Assembly (NCBI GenBank): GCA_045638385.1
Contig: JAZUBI010000128.1
Span: 1 to 63,549, forward strand
Length of the DNA: 63,549 nucleotides
Origin: Eubacteriales bacterium
GTDB taxonomy: Bacteria > Bacillota > Clostridia > Oscillospirales > CAG-272
Direction of reading: 5' to 3'
The notes beneath the pieces are model-generated. The model saw only the letters and a list, made by a program, of their open reading frames with translations. It had not been told where the DNA came from and made no database searches. Position 1 is the first letter of the stretch; each line of letters starts with the position of its first letter. Positions 5,412-56,469 of this stretch are shown here, piece after piece. Made by a program: the position numbers and the translations under genes.

Positions 5412-5700
5412 GCCGCGCTCGAGGAGCAACGCAGTGTTCGGACAAAATCGAAGTCCAATCTTGGCAATGAATTTTGTTTGAAGACAAGGCGCACCGCAGA
5501 GGGCAAGGCGAAGGCGTAGTTACCTACGTCGAGCCGCGCTCGAGGAGCAACGCAGTATTCGGATAAAGTCGAAGTCCAATCTTGGCAATGAATTTTGTTT
5601 GAAGACAAGGCGCACCGCAGAGGGCAAGGCGAAGGCGTAGTTACCTACGTCGAGCCGCGCTCGAGGAGAAACGCAGTATTCGGACAAAATTCGAAGCCAC
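5412..5700. repeat. 121-bp tandem repeat, about 2.4 copies, abutting the 5' end of ssrA
   Basis: Units start at 5412, 5533 and 5654 (gccgcgctcgaggag...) and are near-identical. The third unit is truncated where the tmRNA begins. It generates the overlapping 83-aa and 60-aa track ORFs. Confidence 0.85.
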
Positions 5701-5701
5701 A

Positions 5702-6097
5702 TGGGTCTGTAAAGGTTTCGACGGGGATTTTGAGGTATGATAAGCGGGTAGAGCCGAGTAATCTCTAAAACTGCTCAAACTTTAAAAAATAAACGACAAC
5801 AATACTGTTGCTATGGCTGCCTAATCGTCGCTCCGTAAGGAGCTGACGAAGGCAGTGCTGTGACCTGCGGGTCACCCGTTCCTCTCGGAAGGACCACGAG
5901 CCGAGACTGAGCGTCATCTGAGTGGTGCACGTGCATCGGCGGTTTACCGTTGAACCGATCACGCATAAAACGGTTGCTCTCACACCGAGCCTGAGTACCG
6001 GCGCGGCGGGGGAAAAGCTCCAATAGATACTCTGCACCCGGAGAAAGTTGTATCAAGAGGTTTTCGGACAGGGGTTCGACTCCCCTCAGATCCACCA
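5702..6097 (+). ncRNA. ssrA: tmRNA (transfer-messenger RNA)
   Basis: 5' GGGTCTG pairs with 3' CAGATCC, including a G3:U70 wobble, followed by ACCA. GGTTTCGACGGGG lies at the 5' side and a T-arm GGGGTTCGACTCCCC at the 3' side. The internal tag frame ends ...NDNNTVAMAA-TAA (5792-5824). Confidence 0.9.
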
Positions 6098-10546: not shown

Positions 10547-10857
10547 AGAGAGGCATGAGCCTCTCTTGTTGTTTTTTGCGATATATTTGACGGAGCGAAC
10601 CCCCTACCGCCCCTTGGGGCGGTATTAACGTGCGCTAAACGCGCGAATATCCAAAATACGCCTCGGCGCACGTGTTAGGTTCAGACTCCCCGGCAAAAGG
10701 AGAGAGGCATGAGCCTCTCTTGTTGTTTTTTGCGATATATTTGACGGAGCGAACCCCCTACCGCCCCTTGGAGCGGTATTAACGTGCGCTAAACGCGCGA
10801 ATATCCAAAATACGCCTCGGCGCACGTGTTAGGTTCAGACTCCCCTCAGATCCACCA
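10547..10857 (+). repeat. Two tandem 154-bp units, each ending in a tmRNA T-arm-like GGTTCAGACTCCCC
   Basis: Units start at 10547 and 10701. Each has a terminator-like hairpin (agagaggc/gcctctct + T-run) and ends at 10678-10691 or 10832-10845. The duplicated 62-aa and 66-aa track ORFs are repeat artefacts. Confidence 0.85.
10832..10857 (+). repeat. Direct copy of the ssrA 3' end (att-type repeat)
   Basis: GGTTCAGACTCCCCTCAGATCCACCA versus the functional GGTTCGACTCCCCTCAGATCCACCA (6073-6097). The only difference is one inserted A. Confidence 0.85.
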
Positions 10858-10860
10858 AAA

Positions 10861-10900
10861 AATACTGCAGAAAATGATACATTTTCTGCAGTATTTTTTT
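10861..10900. terminator. Bidirectional rho-independent terminator (probably the original ssrA terminator)
   Basis: 16-bp perfect stem (10861-10876 / 10880-10895), 3-nt loop, A-run before and T-run after. Confidence 0.75.
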
Positions 10901-10902
10901 AT

Positions 10903-11082
10903 CCAAGTCGCAGACTTGGTGTATCATCGCCGCACGAAGTGTGGTGGATATCATCAGCCCCTGCGGGGCTGTATCTCATCACGCGCCAGCGTGTATCTTT
11001 CTGCCACTTGATGATATACAAAACTTCGTTTTGATGATATGCAGTTTCTGCGAAATTGATGATATACAACGGCAAGCCGTTG
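10903..11082. repeat. Motif-hairpin array A (3x TATCATC(A), centre, 3x TGATGATA(T), interleaved with 7 small hairpins)
   Basis: Hairpins include ccaagtc-gca-gacttgg, gcccc-tgc-ggggc, cacgc-gcca-gcgtg, caaaac-ttc-gttttg, gcag-ttt-ctgc and caacgg-caag-ccgttg. The array is homologous to the reverse complement of array B. Confidence 0.8.
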
Positions 11083-39964: not shown

Positions 39965-40053
39965 GGAGAGATATCGAAGTGGTCATAACGGGGCTGACTC
40001 GAAATCAGTTTGTGCGCAAGCACACGAGGGTTCGAATCCCTCTCTCTCCGCCA
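39965..40053 (+). tRNA. tRNA-Ser (anticodon CGA)
   Basis: Acceptor GGAGAGA/TCTCTCC, anticodon loop CTCGAAA, long variable arm, T-arm GAGGGTTCGAATCCCTC and an encoded CCA. Confidence 0.9.
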
Positions 40054-40055
40054 AT

Positions 40056-40089
40056 GCAAAAAGGGATGCTGTGTGCATCCCTTTTCTGC
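40056..40089 (+). terminator. tRNA-Ser terminator
   Basis: aaagggatgc/gcatcccttt stem followed by tctgc. Confidence 0.65.
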
Positions 40090-40146
40090 GTTGTGGGGGG
40101 AGAGGGTAAGGAGAACTCGATCTCCAAGGCGCAAGGCTTGGAATTA

Positions 40147-40208
40147 GGTTCAGAATCCCTCTCTCTCCGCCAATGCAAAAAGGGATGCTGCAAGCATCCC
40201 TTTTCTGC
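40147..40208 (+). repeat. Duplicate of the tRNA-Ser 3' end plus its terminator
   Basis: GGTTCAGAATCCCTCTCTCTCCGCCA plus a terminator copy. It differs from the gene (40029-40089) by an inserted A in the T-loop and by loop changes in the terminator. Confidence 0.85.
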
Positions 40209-40431
40209 ATTCCGGGGAAAGGGTAAGGAGCACTCTCTTTCCGCCTCAAAAGCCTAAATTGAATTTTGCGTTCGGTATATTTATTTTAAAAATATAAGCG
40301 CACAGCAAAATTGTATTATTTTTTCTTGCGTTTTTAATAATCTTTGCAATTTGTAACACATTTGTAACGTATCACATGTTATAATAACATCACATAAGAC
40401 ATCTTTTCAGAAAGGATTGAGAAACACAAAT

Positions 40432-44163: not shown

Positions 44164-44252
44164 GCCGGAATGGCGGAATAGGCAGACGCCCGGGACTTAA
44201 AATCCCGTGGTACGAAAGTACCGTGCCGGTTCGAGACCGGCTTCCGGCACCA
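44164..44252 (+). tRNA. tRNA-Leu (anticodon TAA)
   Basis: Acceptor GCCGGAA/TTCCGGC, anticodon loop CTTAAAA, long variable arm, T-arm GCCGGTTCGAGACCGGC and an encoded CCA. Confidence 0.9.
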
Positions 44253-44253
44253 T

Positions 44254-44292
44254 AATGAGAGAGGGGTTCGCATCGCGAACCCCTCTCTCATT
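44254..44292 (+). terminator. tRNA-Leu terminator
   Basis: About 17-bp stem aatgagagaggggttcg / cgaacccctctctcatt. Confidence 0.7.
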
Positions 44293-44299
44293 ATGCTCC

Positions 44300-44580
44300 C
44301 GACCCCACCGTCGCTGAACCGCTCGCGCAAAGCGCGATCAATGTGCGCCAAAATCACCCAAAACCTAAACCAACATCGGCGCACATGTTCGGTTCAGAGA
44401 CCGGCGGTCTCCACCTCCCTGAAAACCCCTCAAACCGCTCGCGCAAAGCGCGATCAATGTGCGCCAAAATCGCTCCAAATCCAAAACAAACCTCGGCGCA
44501 CATGTTCGGTTCAGAGACTGGCTTTCCCTCTCCGCTATTTTGCTACCGAACTTCCCGTCGCTGAACCGCTCCCCTAAGCC
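44300..44580 (+). repeat. About 116-bp tandem units (2+ copies), each ending in a tRNA-Leu T-arm-like GGTTCAGAGAC(C/T)GG
   Basis: Units start at 44317 and 44433 (aaccgctcgcgcaaagcgcgatcaatgtgcgcc...). T-arm-like ends lie at 44391-44404 and 44508-44521. Confidence 0.8.
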
Positions 44581-50872: not shown

Positions 50873-51001
50873 TTCATCACACCGCCCATTGAGTTTGACG
50901 AAAAACTGTGGCACGCCGTGGTCGATAAAGTTACCGTCTACAGCGACGATCGCTTGGTGTATTCGCTGAAAGACGGCAGCGAGATAACGGTTATGCTTTG
51001 A
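50873..51001 (+). pseudogene. C-terminal remnant of a large serine recombinase
   Basis: ...FDEKLWHAVVDKVTVYSDDRLVYSLKDGSEITV resembles the conserved C-terminal tail of clostridial large serine recombinases. There is no upstream catalytic domain. Confidence 0.5.
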
Positions 51002-51063: not shown

Positions 51064-51240
51064 TTACGTTTTGTCGTTATCGCGGCTATTCCAATACTCA
51101 TCATTATTGGGATTGCATTGATTGGAATGGTTGTCATTGTTGGCTTGATATGCAGAGTTGTTCGGATTGTTTTGGTTTGCATAGTGATCAAGCTGTGCCT
51201 GAGAGTGGGTATGTCCCGATACTCCGTGACCTTTTTCCAT
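51064..51240 (-). CDS. Unannotated 58-aa Asn/His-rich micro-protein (below the ORF-track cut-off)
   Basis: ATG 51240 lies 8 nt after GGAGG and 15 nt after the NTase stop. Sequence MEKGHGVSGHTHSQAQLDHYANQNNPNNSAYQANNDNHSNQCNPNNDEYWNSRDNDKT, with 14 Asn and two NPNN motifs. Confidence 0.45.
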   Translation of the reverse strand: MEKGHGVSGHTHSQAQLDHYANQNNPNNSAYQANNDNHSNQCNPNNDEYWNSRDNDKT

Positions 51241-51255
51241 AGTGTAGTCCTCCTT

Positions 51256-51888
51256 TCAGATCGTTTTGTAGACCTGATTTACTGCCTCCACATAAACCAC
51301 AAACGATGGGTGATCTCTATCTCCACGGCGGAGGTAGAGATTTTTCAGCTCTTCGTATGTATCTCTGACTTCATTCCACATCCCAAGCTTTTTTAGCTTT
51401 TCAGCTTTTGTCCTTACATTTTTGGATGAAGGTACTTCGCACCAATTGTAAGTTCCGTACCGCTTGTTGTGAATCAATCGGCACAGGTTACCTTGGCTGT
51501 TCTTTCCCAAGATGGCTATATCAAATTTGAATTCAACAGTTGACGTATGGTTGAGGTAGAGATAAGAAGAGACTACGGAGGTAGAATCATGTCCATCGGA
51601 GAACCAAGTTTTACCTACAATCTTGTTGAGTGATGAAATAACCAAGTTTTTGAGTTTGCCCAAGTCATTCCAATATAATTCGGGCATACTGATAATTACG
51701 AGATTATAATCTAAGTCGAAGGGACCTGATCCATCTCGCATTACCATATTTCTCGCTCCGCTGCCCACCAATACAAATTGTGTATTTATCTCATATTTCT
51801 CTAATAACAAATCTCTAAGGTCTGTGAGAATTTCCGAACAGTAGCTGCGGTAAGGTTTGATTTCAGCATCATTAACGAATTCGTACAT
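51256..51888 (-). CDS. Pol-beta-superfamily nucleotidyltransferase (minimal, SMODS/CD-NTase-like spacing)
   Basis: VGSGARN (G-S motif), then GPFDLDYNLVI ([DE]x[DE]), then EFKFDIAIL (third acidic residue). 210 aa with a helical C-terminus. Confidence 0.6.
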   Translation of the reverse strand: MYEFVNDAEIKPYRSYCSEILTDLRDLLLEKYEINTQFVLVGSGARNMVMRDGSGPFDLDYNLVIISMPELYWNDLGKLKNLVISSLNKIVGKTWFSDGHDSTSVVSSYLYLNHTSTVEFKFDIAILGKNSQGNLCRLIHNKRYGTYNWCEVPSSKNVRTKAEKLKKLGMWNEVRDTYEELKNLYLRRGDRDHPSFVVYVEAVNQVYKTI

Positions 51889-51978: not shown

Positions 51979-52209
51979 TAGGTTTTTGAAAAATAATTAT
52001 TTTTTTATTCCTTGAACGATTGAACCCTCAAACGTACAAAATCCGCCGCTTCTGTCTTTATAGGGCAGAGGATGGCGGATTTATCGTTTATAAAAGAAAA
52101 AACACCCTCAAAACCGCCGAAATGAGCGGTTTAAGGGCGAAAATGAGGCATTTTCCGTATATAAAGCAAAATCCCATAGCCGAAATTGTATCGACTATGG
52201 AATCTTTTT

Positions 52210-52263
52210 TGTGTAAGGGCTATAAAAAAGATATTTTTGCCGTTTTGCTTACGGGATTTGAAC
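52210..52263 (-). repeat. Repeat R, copy 1
   Basis: tgtgtaagggctataaaaaagatatttttgccgttttgcttacgggatttgaac. The reverse complement begins GTTCAAATCCC, the tRNA-fMet T-loop core. Confidence 0.85.
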
Positions 52264-52276
52264 TCTCGAACTCAAT

Positions 52277-52438
52277 CACGGCAAAGCCGTGTATATCATC
52301 AATGCGCAGCATTGTATATCACCAAAACGAAGTTTTGCATATCATCAAGCCGCAGAAATACACGCTAATGCGTGATGATATACACCTTCGGTGATGATAT
52401 GCGCCTAACAGCGATGATATACCAAGCCTGCGGCTTGG
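52277..52438. repeat. Motif-hairpin array B (diverged reverse-complement copy of array A)
   Basis: 3x TATCATCA-type and 3x ATGATATA-type motifs interleaved with hairpins cacggc-aaa-gccgtg, atgc-gca-gcat, aaaac-gaa-gtttt, cacgc-taat-gcgtg, cacc-ttc-ggtg and ccaagcc-tgc-ggcttgg. Confidence 0.8.
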
Positions 52439-52483
52439 ATAAACAAAAAGAGAACTTTTGGTAGACAAAAGTTCTCTTTTTGT

Positions 52484-52538
52484 TGTGTAAGGGCTATAAA
52501 AAAGATATTTTTGCCGTTTTGCTTACGGGATTTGAACC
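52484..52538 (-). repeat. Repeat R, copy 2
   Basis: Same 55-bp sequence as R1. Ends 6 nt from the stop of ORF 52545-52943 and is followed on the minus strand by the hairpin at 52446-52481. Confidence 0.85.
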
Positions 52539-52544
52539 TAACGG

Positions 52545-52943
52545 TTAAATCTCTTTAAAGCGTGCTTCTGACATAACGTTTATGTAATTTTCATCATATT
52601 GATGTATTGAGTGAAACACTCCTTCATCAAGACCCGTGATACAGTTCGGCTTGCCTTTTACGACAAAAATTCTTATGCAATCCTTTGCCGGAGAAAGGCT
52701 AATAAGCGGTTCGGAGATTCCATATATTCTACCTACAATACGAGGTAAAACGGGAAACTGCTCCCACTCTATTGTATTGTTTTTGCAATGAATAATGGAA
52801 TATTTATTAGCGCGTTTCCTTGTAAAATAGATCTCGTAGTTTTTATCTTCCAGTGCGAACTTTACAAGTCCGATTTTATCCATAAACCAATCGCTTTTAG
52901 ATTGATCTTTAAATTTCTCATAAGAAGTATAGATTTTACCCAT
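52545..52943 (-). CDS. Hypothetical 132-aa protein
   Basis: Start moved to ATG 52943 (AAGGAG RBS). 8-nt overlap with the upstream four-helix-bundle gene. No recognisable motif. Confidence 0.55.
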   Translation of the reverse strand: MGKIYTSYEKFKDQSKSDWFMDKIGLVKFALEDKNYEIYFTRKRANKYSIIHCKNNTIEWEQFPVLPRIVGRIYGISEPLISLSPAKDCIRIFVVKGKPNCITGLDEGVFHSIHQYDENYINVMSEARFKEI

Positions 52944-53121
52944 TGTTTTTCTCCTTTGCGGTCTTGCAAGATGCAATTAGCATAACACGAATAGAAGCGC
53001 ATTTATCTGACAGAATTTTATATTGCTGACTTTCAATGTAATTTGTTCTGTGTAAAAGCTCAAGCCAATAGCCTGTCTCGCTTGATTCTTTGAGTGCTAT
53101 TTCAAGCTTGGATTCTGCCAT
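52936..53121 (-). CDS. Short four-helix-bundle protein (23S rRNA-IVS / Avd family, C-terminal-half length)
   Basis: 61 aa. SSETGYWLELL...YI...QY..L...C..I..ML matches the C-terminal helices of the PF05635-type family. It has its own promoter and RBS. Confidence 0.5.
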   Translation of the reverse strand: MAESKLEIALKESSETGYWLELLHRTNYIESQQYKILSDKCASIRVMLIASCKTAKEKNNG

Positions 53122-53144
53122 AGTAGCACCTCTCTTTCACCCAT

Positions 53145-53173
53145 ATTATAGCATAAATTTGGGAATTTGTAAA
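53145..53173 (-). promoter_or_regulatory. Promoter of the four-helix-bundle/132-aa module
   Basis: On the minus strand TTTACA (53168-53173), 17 nt, TATAAT (53145-53150). The -35 lies 2 nt from the edge of array C. Confidence 0.6.
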
Positions 53174-53175
53174 GA

Positions 53176-53349
53176 GTGATGTTTGCCCTTATGGGCAAGT
53201 GATGTTGTGCTATCGCACAGTGATGTATTGATGTCTGCGACTCAAAGTGATGTTATGTGTTCCTTCCTCACGCGCCGCAGCGCACATCACAAGGCAAAGC
53301 CGTCATCACGCACGAAGTGCGCATCACGTTCCGCTTGCGGAACACATCG
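53176..53349. repeat. Motif-hairpin array C (4x GTGATGT, centre, 4x (A)CATCAC, interleaved with small hairpins)
   Basis: GTGATGT at 53176, 53199, 53220 and 53247. ACATCAC-type motifs at 53284, 53303, 53321 and a degenerate one at 53344. Hairpins include ttgccc/gggcaa, tgtgc/gcaca, gcgc/gcgc, gcac/gtgc and gttccg/cggaac. Confidence 0.8.
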
Positions 53350-53391
53350 TTCCAAAAACGAAAAAGCAGTCCATAGGACTGCTTTCGTTTT

Positions 53392-53446
53392 TGTGTAAGG
53401 GCTATAAAAAAGATATTTTTGTCGTTTTGCTTACGGGATTTGAACC
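53392..53446 (-). repeat. Repeat R, copy 3
   Basis: Same 55-bp sequence (one G/C difference). Ends 12 nt from the RloB-like stop and is followed on the minus strand by the hairpin at 53358-53392. Confidence 0.85.
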
Positions 53447-53458
53447 TAGCGAATACCA

Positions 53459-54145
53459 TTAAATATATTTGCTTTTAATATCATCAGGGAGATATTTCGC
53501 AAGTTCTTGAACCAACAAATGAACCTTGGTGGCAGGAACAGATTGAGTATCGGTTTTCCCTCTGAAAGCATCTAACTGCCTTTGCGCATACACAATTGCT
53601 TTCTTTGGGTCTCCTTTTTCTGTCATAATTCCAAACAATTCTTCATTGTTTTTTTCGTATCTAGTCCAGCCCAGTTCTTTGAATTTTCTATGTAAGAATT
53701 TTCTATAGTCTTTCCTGTCATTGTCTGATGTATAATTTGCAAAATTTAAGATAAACCAATATTCAATACACTGATTAGACCATGCACAATGATACGTAAC
53801 TTTATTCTGTTGTCCATTTAATATTTCTGCTCTTTGTGATACAGCATTAAAGTCTTGTGTTGGAAAACTATCTTTATCATATACACACCAAATTTGCGCA
53901 CCATTTATATTGTTTTGTTTCACATACTCTTCTGCATAATAAATGACACGTAATGTTTCAGCTCCAACACCTTCAATGTGTATATGAACAAGATTTTTGT
54001 ATATGGGATTGTTTTTTATGGCTTTTTCAAATCCTTTAAAATACAGTGGTTCTGTTTGCTCTCCTTCACAAAACACATATATTCTTTCTAACGGATTTAA
54101 ATGGTCAATTTCTCTTTTCTTTTTTCGATTTTTCGCACTTGCCAT
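53459..54145 (-). CDS. RloB-family protein (AbiLii-like)
   Basis: The N-terminal RIYVFCEGEQTEPLYFKGF matches the RloB signature (..CEGe.TE..YF). The start overlaps the ATPase stop (TAATG). Confidence 0.75.
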   Translation of the reverse strand: MASAKNRKKKREIDHLNPLERIYVFCEGEQTEPLYFKGFEKAIKNNPIYKNLVHIHIEGVGAETLRVIYYAEEYVKQNNINGAQIWCVYDKDSFPTQDFNAVSQRAEILNGQQNKVTYHCAWSNQCIEYWFILNFANYTSDNDRKDYRKFLHRKFKELGWTRYEKNNEELFGIMTEKGDPKKAIVYAQRQLDAFRGKTDTQSVPATKVHLLVQELAKYLPDDIKSKYI

Positions 54146-55362
54146 TAATACTCACCCCAATCTATAAATCTTCTTAAATAGGGGTCTGCACCGTATCTTC
54201 CTTCTAAATAACGTTTATCGTACTTAGCATCCTTTCTTTCTGCTTTTCCATCATCATTCTTGAATTCCACAAGCGAATACAGTTTAGCTGCTTTGTTTTC
54301 CCCTTTAGCTATAAACCATATTTCATCTCTTCTGAATACATCGTTATTCATGGTTGAAAGATCATGTGATGTGAATATTAACTGTGCACCTTTTTGATTA
54401 GATTCTTTGTTGCTGAACAGTTCAATAATATACTTTAACAAAATGGGGTGAATTTTTGCATCTAATTCGTCAATAACCAATGTTCCTCCAGAAAGCAAAG
54501 TACTAGCAATGCGAGGTAATATTCCAAAAATCTTTATTGTTCCATTAGACTCCTCGCTAAGCTCTAATTCGTAACTATTCTTATCAATAGTATGCGTGGT
54601 ATAAACTCTAATATTATCCTCTGTTTCTTCCACTCTATAATCGGATATATCGATATCCATTTCCATTAACATCTTGAGAATTAACGATTTTATTTTACTT
54701 GATTCTGTAACTCCTATTCGAGAATCGGTATCAGGATTACCATAGTTAATAAAGTCAATACTATTTTCCAACCAATTAACGATATCTTTCACGGTAGCAT
54801 TTCTTCCATGCGTAATTCCTAAGAAGGAAAGCAAGGGGAGATTATCGGATATGCCACTACAATTGTACCCTTTAAAAGAATTTTTTAACTCAATAATCGA
54901 ACCTTTTCTAGTAAACATGGTTGAGTAGGAGCTGCTTGAAATAGACTTTTTATACAACTCCTCATTAACTATTTTATCTTTTAGAATCGATATAATATAT
55001 TGATATTCACATTTTTCAGTTCTAAAGAATAATTCAAATTCAGTCGGTTGATTTATTGTATCTTTGGAAAATTTAAATGGTTTTATAAGAGCACCGCCAT
55101 TTCGTTTGGCACACTCCGTATTATCACATCCAACCGCGCATATAGGTTTCATTATTTTGCTACAGATGCTATATAGCGCATTTAAAACAGTAGACTTACC
55201 AGACCCATTGGGTCCATAAATTACTCCAAGTGGTAAAAATTTTTCTCCATCTGAATCCACTATCAAACTTTCATTATGTTCTGTTATATTAGTAGCTTGC
55301 ATATCAAAAGTGATTTCTTCTTTTAAACATTGAAAGTTTTTAACTGAGAATTGGCAAAGCAT
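54145..55362 (-). CDS. AAA/ABC-type ATPase (AAA_15/AAA_21, AbiLi/RloA-like)
   Basis: Start moved to ATG 55362 (GGAGG RBS). FSVKNFQCL...YGPNGSGKST Walker A, LVIDELDAKIHP Walker B and a FTSHD motif. Confidence 0.8.
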   Translation of the reverse strand: MLCQFSVKNFQCLKEEITFDMQATNITEHNESLIVDSDGEKFLPLGVIYGPNGSGKSTVLNALYSICSKIMKPICAVGCDNTECAKRNGGALIKPFKFSKDTINQPTEFELFFRTEKCEYQYIISILKDKIVNEELYKKSISSSSYSTMFTRKGSIIELKNSFKGYNCSGISDNLPLLSFLGITHGRNATVKDIVNWLENSIDFINYGNPDTDSRIGVTESSKIKSLILKMLMEMDIDISDYRVEETEDNIRVYTTHTIDKNSYELELSEESNGTIKIFGILPRIASTLLSGGTLVIDELDAKIHPILLKYIIELFSNKESNQKGAQLIFTSHDLSTMNNDVFRRDEIWFIAKGENKAAKLYSLVEFKNDDGKAERKDAKYDKRYLEGRYGADPYLRRFIDWGEY

Positions 55363-55573
55363 TGCAATTACCTCCAATTTAATAATTGTTTTATGTTATT
55401 ATAACTCAAACCTCGGCTAGTTATTCATGTTTGTGAGATTTTTTCTCACTATCATTATACTATACTTCGAGCTGTTTTGCAAGTGTTTTTTGCAAAAAAA
55501 TATTTATTTACAAATAATCATTATCTGTTCTTATATATTTTCATGATATAATTTTCACAAGGAGGATTGTATC

Positions 55574-55752
55574 ATGAAATCAAAATTTACTCAAGAAAAA
55601 AACAAATGATTTTAGATCGCTACATATCGAAATCCGAGTCGCCTACAAGTATAATCAAATCCGTCGGTATTTCAAAAAGTACCTTTTACAAGTGGCTATC
55701 CCTGCCCAAAACTCACGTTTGTGGCAGGTGGCGTGAATTTTTTGTTCCCTAA
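55574..55752 (+). pseudogene. Frameshifted, truncated IS3-family transposase OrfA (HTH) fragment
   Basis: ATG 55574 after GGAGG gives MKSKFTQEK and then stops. A 1-nt shift in the A7 run restores ...KQMILDRYISKSESPTSIIKSVGISKSTFYKWL. No OrfB/DDE part follows. Confidence 0.5.
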
Positions 55753-56127
55753 GAGGTAATGACCCCCATTTTTCACTAACAGTGAATAGCCACGTTAAAG
55801 AGTTTTTCCTTAACAAACGAATCGTACTGTTCGGGATCCTCATTCCACTGGGATACAAGTGGGTATATCCAGCTTTCATAAATAGGCAGGTTTTTCACAA
55901 CCCACCGTCCGAGTCTTCCGTCCGTCTTCTGAGAGGGCAAAAATAGCCTGAAAAAGAGCAAATTTGATTATCACCGACAAAATCACCGTCCAAAAAGAAA
56001 GGAAAAGACAGGCATAGATCGGCAATAGTACAAAGCTTATGAAAGAGCTTGAAAACTGAAAAACATCAAAAAAAGCCCTAAAAAGGGCAAAAAAAGAGCC
56101 TTGATACCGAAATATCAAGGCTTTTTT

Positions 56128-56167
56128 TGGTTGCGGGGAGAGGCAAACAAGTATCCCTCCGGGTTAT
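56128..56167 (-). repeat. Decayed copy of the tRNA-fMet 3' half
   Basis: The minus strand reads ATAACCCGGAGG...CCCCGCAACCA, so the anticodon-stem 3' strand and acceptor end are conserved while the T-arm has diverged. It lies about 220 bp downstream of the real gene. Confidence 0.7.
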
Positions 56168-56352
56168 CGCTACGCGCCGCCGCAGGCGCATAGTCGTCTT
56201 TTCGCTTCGCAAAGCTCGCTCAAATACTCCTTGCTTTGTGCGGTCTCACTGCGCGAAAATAGCACACCGTGCTGTTTTCGCTTGTTCGCCCAACGAGCTA
56301 CGCTCGTCGGCTATAACCCGAAGGGCAAAAGATACAGATGCGCTTCAGTAAG

Positions 56353-56390
56353 CAAAAAAACAAGGTAGGACGATGTCCTACCTTGTCTTT
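56353..56390 (-). terminator. tRNA-fMet terminator
   Basis: caaggtaggac/gtcctaccttg stem with a T-run on the minus strand. Confidence 0.7.

Positions 56391-56469
<79 letters not shown>

What the first reader, a model, noticed from the sequence alone, without database searches (positions are those of the whole stretch)
52210..53446. Cassette-like island architecture: 55-bp repeat R (x3) sharing the tRNA-fMet T-loop core
Seen:
- Reading the minus strand away from tRNA-fMet, each cargo module is followed within 6-12 nt of its stop codon by the same 55-bp sequence.
- That sequence begins GGTTCAAATCCC, identical to the T-loop/T-stem of the adjacent tRNA-fMet.
- It is followed by a variable hairpin and then a motif-hairpin array (after R2 and R3) or further hairpins (after R1).
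- The same order (t(m)RNA 3' end copy, hairpin, array) occurs at ssrA (10832-11082).

Inference: these may be scars of serial site-specific integrations whose crossover lies in the T-loop. Alternatively they are an integron-like accumulation of cargo cassettes by one element family whose tRNA-proximal end consists of R, hairpin, array and promoter. No intact recombinase remains, only the serine-recombinase tail at 50873-51001.
Basis: partly seen in the sequence, partly recalled or inferred. Interest (0 to 1): 0.62.

Follow-up and report, generated by a model that had tools for sequence, protein, structure and literature searches.

The report
End site of stacked tRNA-side cassettes
The three 54-base repeats are copies of a conserved end-piece that closes each of several small mobile gene cassettes (here mostly phage-defence genes) stacked directly behind a tRNA gene in an uncultured gut Clostridia bacterium, a pile-up probably built by large serine recombinases; the kind of structure is known, but this site seems undescribed.

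Summary
R occurs three times (52210-52263, 52484-52537, 53392-53445; 0, 0 and 1 mismatch), and nowhere else in this genome.

R is not a local scar. R-like sequences occur in 146 of 400 genomes of the same family and on more than 119 contigs of uncultured gut Clostridia. Where a tRNA or tmRNA gene lies upstream it is always co-directional (42 of 42; 23 tRNA-fMet, 16 other kinds). R always sits at the far end of variable cargo.

R has two conserved blocks, GTTCAAATCcc.taagcA and AAAATATCTTTTTTATAG, at fixed spacing around a hypervariable 8-9 nt. It has no conserved fold.

Large serine recombinase genes, often three in tandem, abut R in about 10 loci. An empty-site comparison (G424 against G418) places the insert between a tRNA's CCA end and its native terminator, so R belongs to the element.

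Each R in the window is followed by sequence that elsewhere directly follows a tRNA-fMet CCA. The window therefore holds a stack of recombinase-less cassettes, each ending in R.

His cassette-accumulation idea is, with the register shifted.

Earlier notes of this scan describe the same element family on other genomes. I rate it a new variant of SCC/CIME-type tandem accretion.

The parts
56392..56469 (-). tRNA-fMet (anticodon CAT), the anchor of the stack. Its T-arm reads GGAGGTTCAAATCC followed by a run of C.
   Evidence: ARAGORN; Rfam tRNA, 50.7 bits
56144..56391 (-). Small non-coding insert of about 250 bp (hairpin plus decayed tRNA-fMet-like pieces). It separates the tRNA from its displaced original 3' end.
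   Evidence: Reading. Homologous to L045 and L144 over 56476-56156. Inserts of the same type are seen in L065, L095 and L107.
56128..56143 (-). Displaced copy of the tRNA-fMet acceptor 3' end (CCTCTCCCCGCAACCA)
   Evidence: Sequence
56060..56127 (-). Terminator AAAAAAGCCTTGATATTTCGGTATCAAGGCTCTTTTTTT. It is a remnant of the conserved 'LE(B)' left end; hairpin H and the inverted R' are missing here.
   Evidence: Compared with the LE(B) blocks
55541..55700 (.). Remnant of an IS3-family insertion sequence, which is intact in the near-identical AbiL cassette of L064 and L065
53459..55377 (-). Cargo of cassette 3: the AbiL defence pair, AbiLi (54145-55377; AAA_21/AAA_15) and AbiLii/RloB (53459-54145)
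   Evidence: Pfam and PADLOC. 98.7-99.1% identical on other contigs.
53392..53446 (-). R3, the right (tRNA-distal) end site of cassette 3
53145..53391 (-). Left end of cassette 2: terminator hairpin (53362-53386), Gut-1-like array C and promoter (53173-53145)
   Evidence: In L053, L135, L148, L160 and L172 the same block starts exactly at a tRNA CCA.
52545..53121 (-). Cargo of cassette 2: a 61-aa fragment of a four-helix-bundle (23S_rRNA_IVP) protein and a 143-aa protein of unknown family
   Evidence: Pfam. The gene's 3' end adjoining R has counterparts in L047, L049 and L053 (84.7-88.1% over about 100 nt that span the gene end and R).
52484..52538 (-). R2, the right end site of cassette 2
52265..52483 (-). 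Cassette 1 without cargo: hairpin (52445-52480) and array B (52290-52440)
   Evidence: Array B plus R1 is 95.5% identical to L095 (behind tRNA-fMet) and 97.5% identical to L107 (behind tRNA-Pro(cgg)).
52210..52264 (-). R1, the right end site of cassette 1
51996..52209 (-). Hairpin block that elsewhere directly follows a tRNA-fMet CCA. It is either the native downstream region or the left end of an older unit.
   Evidence: Terminator at 52206-52168. Homologous to L156 136-321 and to L069 and L049.
51064..51888 (-). Further module (210-aa and 58-aa ORFs, promoter at 51978-51951) that is not closed by an R. Whether it belongs to the stack is uncertain.
50873..51001 (+). C-terminal remnant of a large serine recombinase, in the opposite orientation to the R copies
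   Evidence: BLASTP against the R-adjacent recombinase of L044: 29% identity over 38 aa, E = 1e-4

Best explanation
**What R is.** R is the conserved right-hand (tRNA-distal) terminal site of a family of integrative elements of uncultured gut Clostridia. These elements insert between the CCA end of a tRNA or tmRNA gene and its terminator.

**Autonomous and stripped members.** Autonomous members carry one to three large serine recombinase (LSR) genes immediately inside R. Most members, including all three in this window, are stripped-down cassettes. They keep a left end, a promoter, cargo and R.

**Left ends.** There are two types. One is a terminator hairpin plus a Gut-1-like hairpin array. 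The other is the block 'LE(B)': hairpin H, a terminator and an inverted R'.

**Proposed mechanism (inferred).** In the circular form R would abut the element's left end, and that junction would be attP. Recombination with 'tRNA 3' end | downstream sequence' would place the element directly after CCA. Its own left-end hairpin would then become the new tRNA terminator. Repeating this step, or recombining with the tRNA|left-end junction of a resident element, stacks cassettes head to tail. Each seam then reads cargo - R - hairpin of the next cassette.

**Shown.** The distribution, orientation and anatomy of R; that R belongs to the element; the CCA/terminator insertion point; the adjacency of LSR genes; the exchange of identical cargo-plus-R units between unrelated contexts.

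**Inferred.** That the LSR is the enzyme, that the crossover lies at the outer end of R, and that the cassettes are mobilised in trans.
For: - **Distribution.** R-like matches occur in 146 of 400 genomes and 57 of 97 genera of the family, and on more than 119 contigs of gut or rumen Clostridia MAGs.
- **Orientation.** In all 42 loci with an upstream tRNA or tmRNA, that gene is co-directional with R. The distance is 131-6644 nt. 23 are tRNA-fMet and the rest are 15 other tRNA species plus tmRNA.
- **Anatomy.** 126 unique copies share two conserved blocks at a spacing fixed in 104 of 126. There is no conserved fold on either strand.
- **Recombinase.** LSR ORFs are the largest cluster near R: 20 ORFs in 10 loci, all on the cargo side and all co-oriented, with triplets in L044, L098, L136 and L167. 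They carry the Resolvase, Recombinase and Zn_ribbon_recom domains.
- **Empty site.** In G424 the tRNA-Thr CCA abuts a terminator hairpin. In G418 the same hairpin (flank 94% identical) abuts the outer end of R, with three LSR genes just inside. The G418 tRNA-Thr is followed by a different hairpin.
- **R is never unoccupied.** The motif ATATCTTTTTTATAG occurs only inside R (126 unique copies) or inside hairpin H next to a tRNA end (15). No 'empty' R-outer site was found in 401 genomes.
- **Mobile unit ends at R.** 32 locus pairs share the cargo next to R (78-100% identity), yet none shares the 200 nt beyond R (49-62%). This includes the AbiL cassette of this window, which is 98.7-99.1% identical on five other contigs.
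- **What follows each R.** The left-end block after R3 starts exactly at a tRNA CCA in L053, L135, L148, L160 and L172. The blocks after R2 and R1 behave the same way.
- **Tandem accretion.** In 11 of 48 loci the sequence after R duplicates the sequence after the tRNA CCA.
Against: - No intact recombinase lies in this window. The only LSR remnant points the other way.
- No excised circle or attP-like junction (R joined to a left end) was found, neither in the fetched loci nor in the JGI metagenome scan. R is absent from IMG/VR.
- In 11 of 17 pairs whose cargo is at least 92% identical, the 8-9-nt spacer is replaced as a block. That implies a second breakpoint inside R, which a crossover only at R's outer end does not explain.
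- The T-arm-like block lies about 45-54 nt from the proposed crossover. That is farther than a typical LSR half-site reaches.
- The left and right ends of the G418 insert are on different contigs, so it is not proven that they belong to one element.
Confidence: 0.6

Rival explanations
1. Serial integrations by an integrase whose crossover lies in the T-loop core GGTTCAAATCCC. Each R would be the displaced or element-supplied '3' end' after the core, so the units would run from core to core.
For: - 12-13 nt of identity with the tRNA-fMet T-arm.
- A breakpoint between the T-arm-like block and the spacer is seen in many pairs with near-identical cargo.
- Small inserts of a true T-loop-crossover type do exist at the same tRNAs (56144-56391; L065, L095, L107).
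Against: - Past the core, R is not a tRNA 3' end, so joining it to a tRNA 5' part would destroy the tRNA. No tRNA-5'-part joined to R was seen among 126 copies.
- The GTTCAAATC block is the same behind tRNAs whose T-loops differ.
- Left-end blocks begin at the hairpin, after either CCA or R, and not at the core.
- The empty-site junction is at CCA|terminator.
Confidence: 0.13
2. R is a portable homology anchor. Cargo would be exchanged by ordinary homologous recombination between the conserved tRNA gene(s) on one side and the two conserved blocks of R on the other. No dedicated site-specific step at R would be needed.
For: - Two conserved blocks of about 20-26 nt, with breakpoints seen on either side of the spacer.
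- The same cargo is found at tRNA-fMet loci of different species.
Against: - The blocks are at or below the usual minimum length for efficient RecA recombination (general knowledge).
- It does not explain why R is conserved at fixed spacing across 57 genera.
- It does not explain why LSR genes abut R.
- It does not explain how the same array-plus-R unit moved from tRNA-fMet to tRNA-Pro(cgg).
Confidence: 0.1
3. R is a cis-acting 3'-UTR or terminator-associated RNA element of the cargo transcripts, for example a T-arm mimic that affects mRNA stability. It would be conserved for that role and not for recombination.
For: - R lies between the stop codon and an intrinsic terminator.
- It is co-oriented with the cargo genes.
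- It has a T-loop-like motif.
Against: - No conserved secondary structure on either strand in 104 aligned copies.
- No Rfam match.
- R1 and its counterparts in L095 and L107 follow an array with no gene.
- R coincides with the boundary of the mobile unit.
- An inverted copy R' sits at the other end of many elements.
Confidence: 0.07
4. R and R' are terminal inverted repeats of a cut-and-paste (DDE-type) transposon family that homes to tRNA 3' ends. The serine recombinases would be passengers.
For: - R(+) begins TGTG.
- In about 13 loci the cargo is flanked by inverted R'/R copies.
Against: - No linked DDE transposase. The only rve genes are IS3 copies inserted in the cargo.
- No target-site duplication of fixed length. 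The duplications after R span from about 35-45 nt (L180, L075) through about 75 nt (L095) to about 270 nt (L065).
- Many elements have an array-type left end with no R'.
Confidence: 0.05

Closest known systems
SCC/SCCmec composite islands at rlmH (orfX) in staphylococci, moved by the CcrAB/CcrC large serine recombinases (from my own knowledge; also named in scan note e1-3344522)
   Same: - Elements insert at the 3' end of a conserved gene without destroying it.
- They stack head to tail.
- Each seam is marked by a repeated site.
- Many units lack recombinase genes and are thought to be mobilised in trans.
- The cargo is accessory or defence genes.
   Different: - The target here is the CCA/terminator boundary of many different tRNA and tmRNA genes.
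- The seam site is a 54-nt bipartite sequence with a T-arm-like block and a hypervariable spacer.
- Left ends carry hairpin arrays.
- Units can be as small as about 245 bp with no gene.
- No Ccr orthology was tested.
CIMEs and site-specific tandem accretion of ICE/IME elements (ICESt1/ICESt3 and streptococcal IMEs; review PMC5704250)
   Same: [quoted passage not shown]
   Different: In that review every listed IME at a tRNA 3' end uses a tyrosine integrase and sits inside the gene's 3' end. IMEs with serine recombinases are described there as mostly disrupting dispensable genes. Here the linked enzyme is an LSR and the tRNA is left untouched.
Tycheposons of Prochlorococcus (bioRxiv 10.1101/2020.12.28.424599; listed, details from my own knowledge)
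   Same: tRNA- and tmRNA-anchored islands built from serial integrations, with cargo modules and degraded elements in tandem. Some use large serine recombinases.
   Different: Their seams are partial copies of the target tRNA itself. Here the seam is a family-wide site that is not the local tRNA's 3' end. The hosts are unrelated.
Integrons (attC-bounded cassettes)
   Same: Promoter-poor or single-gene cassettes, each closed by a recombination site at its 3' end and accumulated in one orientation at a fixed platform.
   Different: There is no integron-type tyrosine integrase and no attI. R has no conserved hairpin, whereas attC works as a folded single strand. Most cassettes here bring their own promoter.
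Classical tRNA-integrating genomic islands and prophages with tyrosine integrases
   Same: tRNA and tmRNA genes serve as anchors, and islands pile up behind them.
   Different: Those leave direct repeats of the tRNA's own 3' segment, and the crossover lies inside the gene. R is not such a repeat, and the junction lies after CCA.

Membership tests
Large-serine-recombinase integrative elements (SCC-like or Tn4451-like) | A recombinase with Resolvase, Recombinase and zinc-ribbon domains encoded at one end of the element, next to its att site | tested here: met
   Met in relatives: 10 loci, with the stop codon 0-100 nt from R. Not met in the window itself, where only a 38-aa remnant lies on the other strand.
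Large-serine-recombinase integrative elements (SCC-like or Tn4451-like) | A defined attB, shown by comparing an empty site with an occupied one | tested here: met
   G424 (empty) against G418 (occupied) at tRNA-Thr(ggt): the junction lies at CCA|terminator hairpin. This is one case only, and the two ends of the insert are on different contigs.
Large-serine-recombinase integrative elements (SCC-like or Tn4451-like) | A circular excised form with an attP junction, and a crossover at a central dinucleotide | tested here: inconclusive
   No R|left-end junction was found outside chromosomal stacks in the fetched loci or in JGI metagenomes.
CIME / tandem accretion | Recombinase-less units that keep both end sites and lie in tandem at the target of a related autonomous element | tested here: met
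   Three units in the window each end in R. The same ends occur on LSR-bearing elements. In 11 of 48 loci the post-CCA sequence is duplicated after R.
Integron cassette array | An IntI-type tyrosine integrase with attI, and attC sites that fold into conserved imperfect hairpins | tested here: not met
   No tyrosine recombinase appears among the annotated recurrent ORF clusters near R. R has a consensus fold energy of 0.
tRNA-gene island made by a tyrosine integrase (T-loop or anticodon-loop crossover) | Direct repeats that reproduce the target tRNA's own 3' segment at the island's distal end | tested here: not met
   R shares only the T-loop motif with tRNA-fMet and continues GTAAGC.... The same block occurs behind 16 other tRNA/tmRNA kinds.
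Described RNA family (Rfam 15) | A score at or above the family's gathering threshold | tested here: not met
   No match covers R. The neighbouring arrays reach 34.9 bits against Gut-1, below the threshold of 50.
TIR transposon / MITE | Terminal inverted repeats, a fixed-length target-site duplication and a cognate transposase | tested here: not met
   Inverted R'/R pairs exist in about 13 loci. There is no fixed-length duplication and no linked transposase.

The most novel reading that the evidence does not exclude
R is more than an end site: it is a portable landing pad. Each cassette would bring along a pseudo-tRNA end, made of a T-arm-like block, a fixed-length 8-9-nt exchangeable spacer and a CCA-like ...ACA|AAAA edge. 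The recombinase would treat this like a real tRNA end. Cassettes could then be added, swapped (R x R) or excised at any seam by an enzyme supplied in trans. That would amount to an integron-like cassette platform run by large serine recombinases, with the hypervariable spacer acting as a compatibility code.
Probability: 0.2. Interest if true: 0.8.

Novelty: new variant of a known kind. Interest (0 to 1): 0.58.

Why it matters
- **A search handle.** These cassettes carry phage-defence and toxin-antitoxin genes: AbiL here, and type I restriction-modification and barnase/barstar pairs elsewhere. They sit in very abundant but uncultured gut and rumen Clostridia. A 54-nt site that marks the end of every cassette gives a simple, sequence-based way to harvest this variable gene pool from metagenomes.
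- **Likely cause of assembly breaks.** The sequence after R often repeats the sequence after the tRNA. That probably accounts for the many R copies lying within about 30-300 nt of a contig end.
- **A possible new recombinase class.** If the linked enzymes are confirmed, this would be a family of large serine recombinases that insert DNA precisely at the CCA end of many tRNA genes without damaging them. The IME review I consulted assigns that target class to tyrosine integrases. Such recombinases are of practical interest as site-specific integration tools.

Tried and rejected
1. **R as the displaced 3' end of some other tRNA.** None of the 40 tRNA/tmRNA genes of this genome ends with TTCAAATCCCGTAAGC.
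2. **R-outer as the host half of a palindromic attB.** No 'empty' site was found in 401 family genomes or in the fetched loci.
3. **attP formed by two T-arm-like halves.** Not found in the loci or in IMG/VR.
4. **attP as R-outer joined to hairpin H.** Not found in the loci. The JGI metagenome scan returned only unrelated AT-rich palindromes.
5. **R as a structured RNA.** No consensus fold on either strand and no Rfam match.
6. **R as a promoter.** No sigma-70-like site of note lies within R.
7. **The spacer as a copy of the local tRNA's acceptor end.** Rejected on inspecting L082, L112 and L139.
8. **Spacers homogenised within a genome as a rule.** Not so: co-resident R copies differ in L079, L099, L173 and L063. 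The window's three identical spacers are therefore a local feature.
9. **Comparing strains of this species.** The exact-protein look-ups for the host gene and for the 143-aa cargo found nothing. Genus relatives are too diverged at the DNA level.
Full report
**1. The observation**

The 54-nt sequence TGTGTAAGGGCTATAAAAAAGATATTTTTGCCGTTTTGCTTACGGGATTTGAAC occurs on the + strand at 52210-52263, 52484-52537 and 53392-53445. The copies carry 0, 0 and 1 mismatch, and shuffles give none. These are the only copies in the whole MAG, which has 2.59 Mb in 229 contigs and is 79.6% complete.

tRNA-fMet lies at 56392-56469 on the minus strand. Read on that strand, R2 and R3 start (A)GGTTCAAATCCC, which is identical to the tRNA's T-arm. 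R1 starts GAGTTCAAATCCC.

R3 begins 12 nt after the stop codon of the second gene of an AbiL defence pair (AbiLi 54145-55377, AbiLii/RloB 53459-54145). R2 begins 6 nt after the stop codon of a 143-aa ORF, which follows a 61-aa four-helix-bundle (23S_rRNA_IVP) fragment. R1 follows a hairpin array with no gene.

Each R is followed by a hairpin. After R3 and R2 comes an array that weakly resembles Rfam Gut-1. The parallel at ssrA is real, but the copy there is the gene's own displaced 3' end.

**2. R is a family-wide site, not a local scar**

A 61-nt query finds R-like sequence in 146 of 400 sampled genomes of the same family, spread over 57 of 97 genera. All were uncultured gut or rumen Clostridia labelled Oscillospiraceae, Ruminococcus, Faecousia, Scatosoma, Timburyella and others.

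In those 119 stretches, every one of the 42 loci with a tRNA or tmRNA upstream of R has it in the same direction, 131-6644 nt away. Of these, 23 are tRNA-fMet (usually the tRNA-Leu(taa)-tRNA-fMet pair). The rest are 15 other tRNA species and tmRNA.

The 126 unique copies give this consensus: GTTCAAATCcc.taagcA, then 8-9 variable nt, then AAAATATCTTTTTTATAGccctt..ACAaaaa. The spacing is identical in 104 of 126. RNAalifold finds no consensus structure on either strand, and Rfam has nothing for R. A bipartite, unstructured, spacing-constrained sequence points to a protein-binding DNA site.

**3. What lies on each side of R**

On the tRNA side of R the sequence is variable cargo. ORF clustering over about 140 loci shows no cluster present in more than 10 loci. 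The annotated ones include type I restriction-modification subunits, barnase/barstar-like pairs, four-helix-bundle proteins and IS3 transposases.

The largest cluster is large serine recombinases: 20 ORFs in 10 loci, all on the cargo side and all running toward R. Tandem triplets occur in L044, L098, L136 and L167. They have the full Resolvase, Recombinase and zinc-ribbon architecture. Shorter recombinase fragments abut R in other loci, for example L142. That suggests a decay series leading to recombinase-less cassettes.

**4. Where the insert sits**

G424 and G418 share a flank that is 94% identical. In G424 a tRNA-Thr(ggt) gene ends ...GCAGCTCCA and is followed at once by the hairpin AAAATAAAAGCAC...GTGCTTTTATTTTT. 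In G418 the same hairpin is preceded by the outer end of R (...TATAGTGAATAGAC), with three recombinase genes just inside. The G418 tRNA-Thr lies on another contig and is followed by a different hairpin. The insert therefore lies between CCA and the native terminator, the tRNA stays intact, and R belongs to the insert.

Two further results agree:
- The motif ATATCTTTTTTATAG is found only inside R, or inside a small hairpin H that directly follows some tRNAs.
- A search for an unoccupied R-outer half-site found none in 401 genomes.

**5. The unit that moves**

Thirty-two pairs of loci share the 192 nt of cargo next to R at 78-100% identity. None of them shares the 200 nt beyond R, where identity is 49-62%.

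The AbiL cassette of this window is 98.7-99.1% identical to five metagenome contigs from other organisms. The homology ends at the outer edge of R3, at 53388-53390. On one of these contigs the cassette also lies behind a tRNA-Leu-tRNA-fMet pair whose tRNA is only 85% identical, which indicates transfer between species.

The cargo-less unit 'array B + R1' (52447-52203) is 95.5% identical to a unit behind tRNA-fMet in L095. It is 97.5% identical to one behind tRNA-Pro(cgg) in L107.

Conversely, the block after R3 (hairpin, array C, promoter) starts at exactly the same base in other genomes. This holds whether it is preceded by a tRNA-fMet CCA (L053, L135, L148, L160), by another tRNA's CCA (L172), by a displaced tRNA end (L069, L177), or, as here, by R. 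The blocks after R2 and R1 likewise follow a tRNA end elsewhere.

The register is therefore [hairpin - array - promoter - cargo - R]. The window reads as follows:
- tRNA-fMet;
- a small later insert (56144-56391) and the displaced tRNA end (56128-56143);
- cassette 3: an LE(B) remnant, an IS3 remnant, AbiL and R3;
- cassette 2: hairpin, array C, four-helix-bundle fragment, 143-aa gene and R2;
- cassette 1: hairpin, array B and R1;
- a hairpin block that elsewhere directly follows tRNA-fMet.

**6. A second type of left end**

In about 13 loci, behind several different tRNAs, the CCA is followed by a conserved block of about 140 nt. I call it LE(B). It consists of:
- hairpin H (GGGCTATAAAAAAGATATAGCC), whose stem changes in a compensated way to GGGCGAT/ATCGCC or GACAAT/ATTGTC;
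- a conserved terminator (AAAAGCCTTGATTTTTCAAGGCTTTTTT);
- a spacer;
- an inverted, slightly shortened copy of R, called R'.

The cargo in these loci is thus bracketed by inverted R'/R copies. In G418 a tRNA-Leu-like 3' fragment followed by H, a terminator and an R'-like sequence lies about 49 kb from the R that adjoins the recombinase genes. The tRNA-Thr comparison above, however, suggests that the outermost left end of that insert lies on another contig, so this block may belong to a nested or older unit. In the window only the terminator of LE(B) survives, at 56060-56127.

**7. Mechanism**

The simplest account is site-specific recombination by the R-adjacent serine recombinases. The partners would be an element junction (R next to the element's own left end) and the tRNA-end/terminator boundary.

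One further observation supports this. In 11 of 48 loci the 50-90 nt or more after R duplicate the sequence after the tRNA CCA of the same locus. That is the expected product if a circular copy recombines with the tRNA|left-end junction of a resident copy, which is tandem accretion. The duplication also probably explains why so many R hits lie within about 30-300 nt of a contig end.

Several points remain unexplained:
- In 11 of 17 pairs whose cargo is at least 92% identical, the 8-9-nt spacer differs as a block. Examples are AAACGACAA here against CTCCCCCGA and CTCGCTCG in the otherwise 99-100% identical AbiL cassettes. There is thus a second breakpoint, between the T-arm-like block and the spacer. 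R x R exchange, or recombination within the conserved blocks, could produce it.
- The role of the T-arm-like block is not shown. It is invariant across different tRNA hosts. It therefore looks like a fossil or mimic of the commonest target, tRNA-fMet, rather than a copy of the neighbouring gene.

**8. Comparison with known systems and novelty**

The architecture works like SCC composite islands and like CIME/ICE accretion. Recombinase-less units that keep their end sites are stacked at the 3' end of a conserved gene.

The IME review I consulted lists only tyrosine integrases for tRNA 3'-end IMEs. It describes serine-recombinase IMEs as mostly disrupting dispensable genes, and it describes CIME accretion.

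Integron membership fails: there is no IntI and R has no fold. The classical tRNA-island definition also fails, because R is not the tRNA's own 3' segment.

Earlier notes of this scan describe the same family on other genomes. Note e1-3705210 reports serine-recombinase mobilisable elements inserting exactly at the CCA end of many tRNAs. Note e1-3344522 draws the SCC-like analogy. I reached the CCA-end insertion and the recombinase link independently here.

What this window adds:
- the R consensus with its fixed-length hypervariable spacer;
- the two left-end types, including the inverted R';
- the empty-site junction;
- the duplication of the post-CCA sequence after R.

I found no paper describing R or this element family, but the literature search was limited.

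**9. Verdict**

The feature is real, conserved and informative. I classify it as a new variant of a known kind, namely tandem accretion of integrative elements run by serine recombinases. The enzymology is open, and one feature, the block-replaced spacer, remains unexplained.

Noticed in passing
window 56128-56391: An insert of about 250 bp (terminator hairpin plus decayed, partly palindromic tRNA-fMet-like pieces) separates tRNA-fMet from a displaced copy of its own 3' end (CCTCTCCCCGCAACCA at 56128-56143). Inserts of the same type in L065, L095 and L107 begin, right after the hairpin, with an inverted copy of the local tRNA's 3' half. The tRNA 3' half, the hairpin and the inverted half together form a long palindrome.
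   Followed up: partly
window 56392-56420: The tRNA-fMet has a run of ten C after the T-loop, and its T-stem carries an A.C mismatch (GGAGG against CCCCC). This could be a homopolymer assembly error, or a 3' part supplied by the small insert. A second tRNA-Leu(taa)-tRNA-fMet pair lies on contig C18 (31364-31543).
   Followed up: no
window 44164-44252 and 56392-56469: tRNA-Leu(taa) (+) and tRNA-fMet (-) are convergent and 12 kb apart. In nearly all relatives the two genes are adjacent and co-directional. This suggests an inversion of the tRNA-fMet gene together with its island, possibly caused by a recombinase.
   Followed up: no
R copies in 126 loci; window 52510-52518, 52236-52244 and 53418-53426: The 8-9 nt between the two conserved blocks of R are hypervariable but of fixed length. 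They fall into two broad classes, AAAACGGCA-like and ACTCCCCCG-like. They are replaced as a block between cassettes that are otherwise 99% identical. The window's three copies have practically the same spacer, whereas co-resident copies in other genomes differ.
   Followed up: partly
L045, L050, L054, L082, L093, L139, G418:C1 about 83877: Hairpin H directly after the CCA of several tRNAs has an invariant loop region (ATAAAAAAGATAT) and a stem that changes by compensated substitutions (GGGCTAT/ATAGCC, GGGCGAT/ATCGCC, GACAAT/ATTGTC). The outer block of R equals one arm plus the loop of H, in the opposite orientation.
   Followed up: partly
L065, L135, L097, L156, L095, L111, L059 and others: The sequence after R repeats the sequence after the tRNA CCA of the same locus. 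The repeat is at least 50 nt in most of these loci and reaches about 270 nt in L065. This is a likely cause of the many contig breaks seen about 30-300 nt beyond R in MAG assemblies.
   Followed up: partly
L044 8071-12120; L098 2814-6878; L136 4417-7997; L167 121-3606: Three consecutive serine-recombinase genes (about 520, 310 and 545 aa) lie next to R. In L044, the only triplet scanned against Pfam, the middle ORF shows just the 'Recombinase' domain.
   Followed up: partly
window 5412-5690: Two full tandem copies of a 121-nt unit, plus the first 37 nt of a third, lie immediately upstream of the tmRNA gene (5703-6097).
   Followed up: no
window 10547-10845, 40027-40217 and 44290-44571: Tandem small units behind ssrA, tRNA-Ser(cga) and tRNA-Leu(taa) each end in a copy of the gene's 3' end that reads GGTTCAGA instead of GGTTCGA. 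This matches scan note e1-5147783. The same signature appears in inverted pseudo-tRNA halves elsewhere (GGTTCAGATCC in L065).
   Followed up: no
window 10903-11082: The array behind ssrA starts with the same words (TATCCAAGYCGCAGRCTTGG) as array B at 52440. No R closes the unit at ssrA, so not every array-type element ends in R.
   Followed up: no
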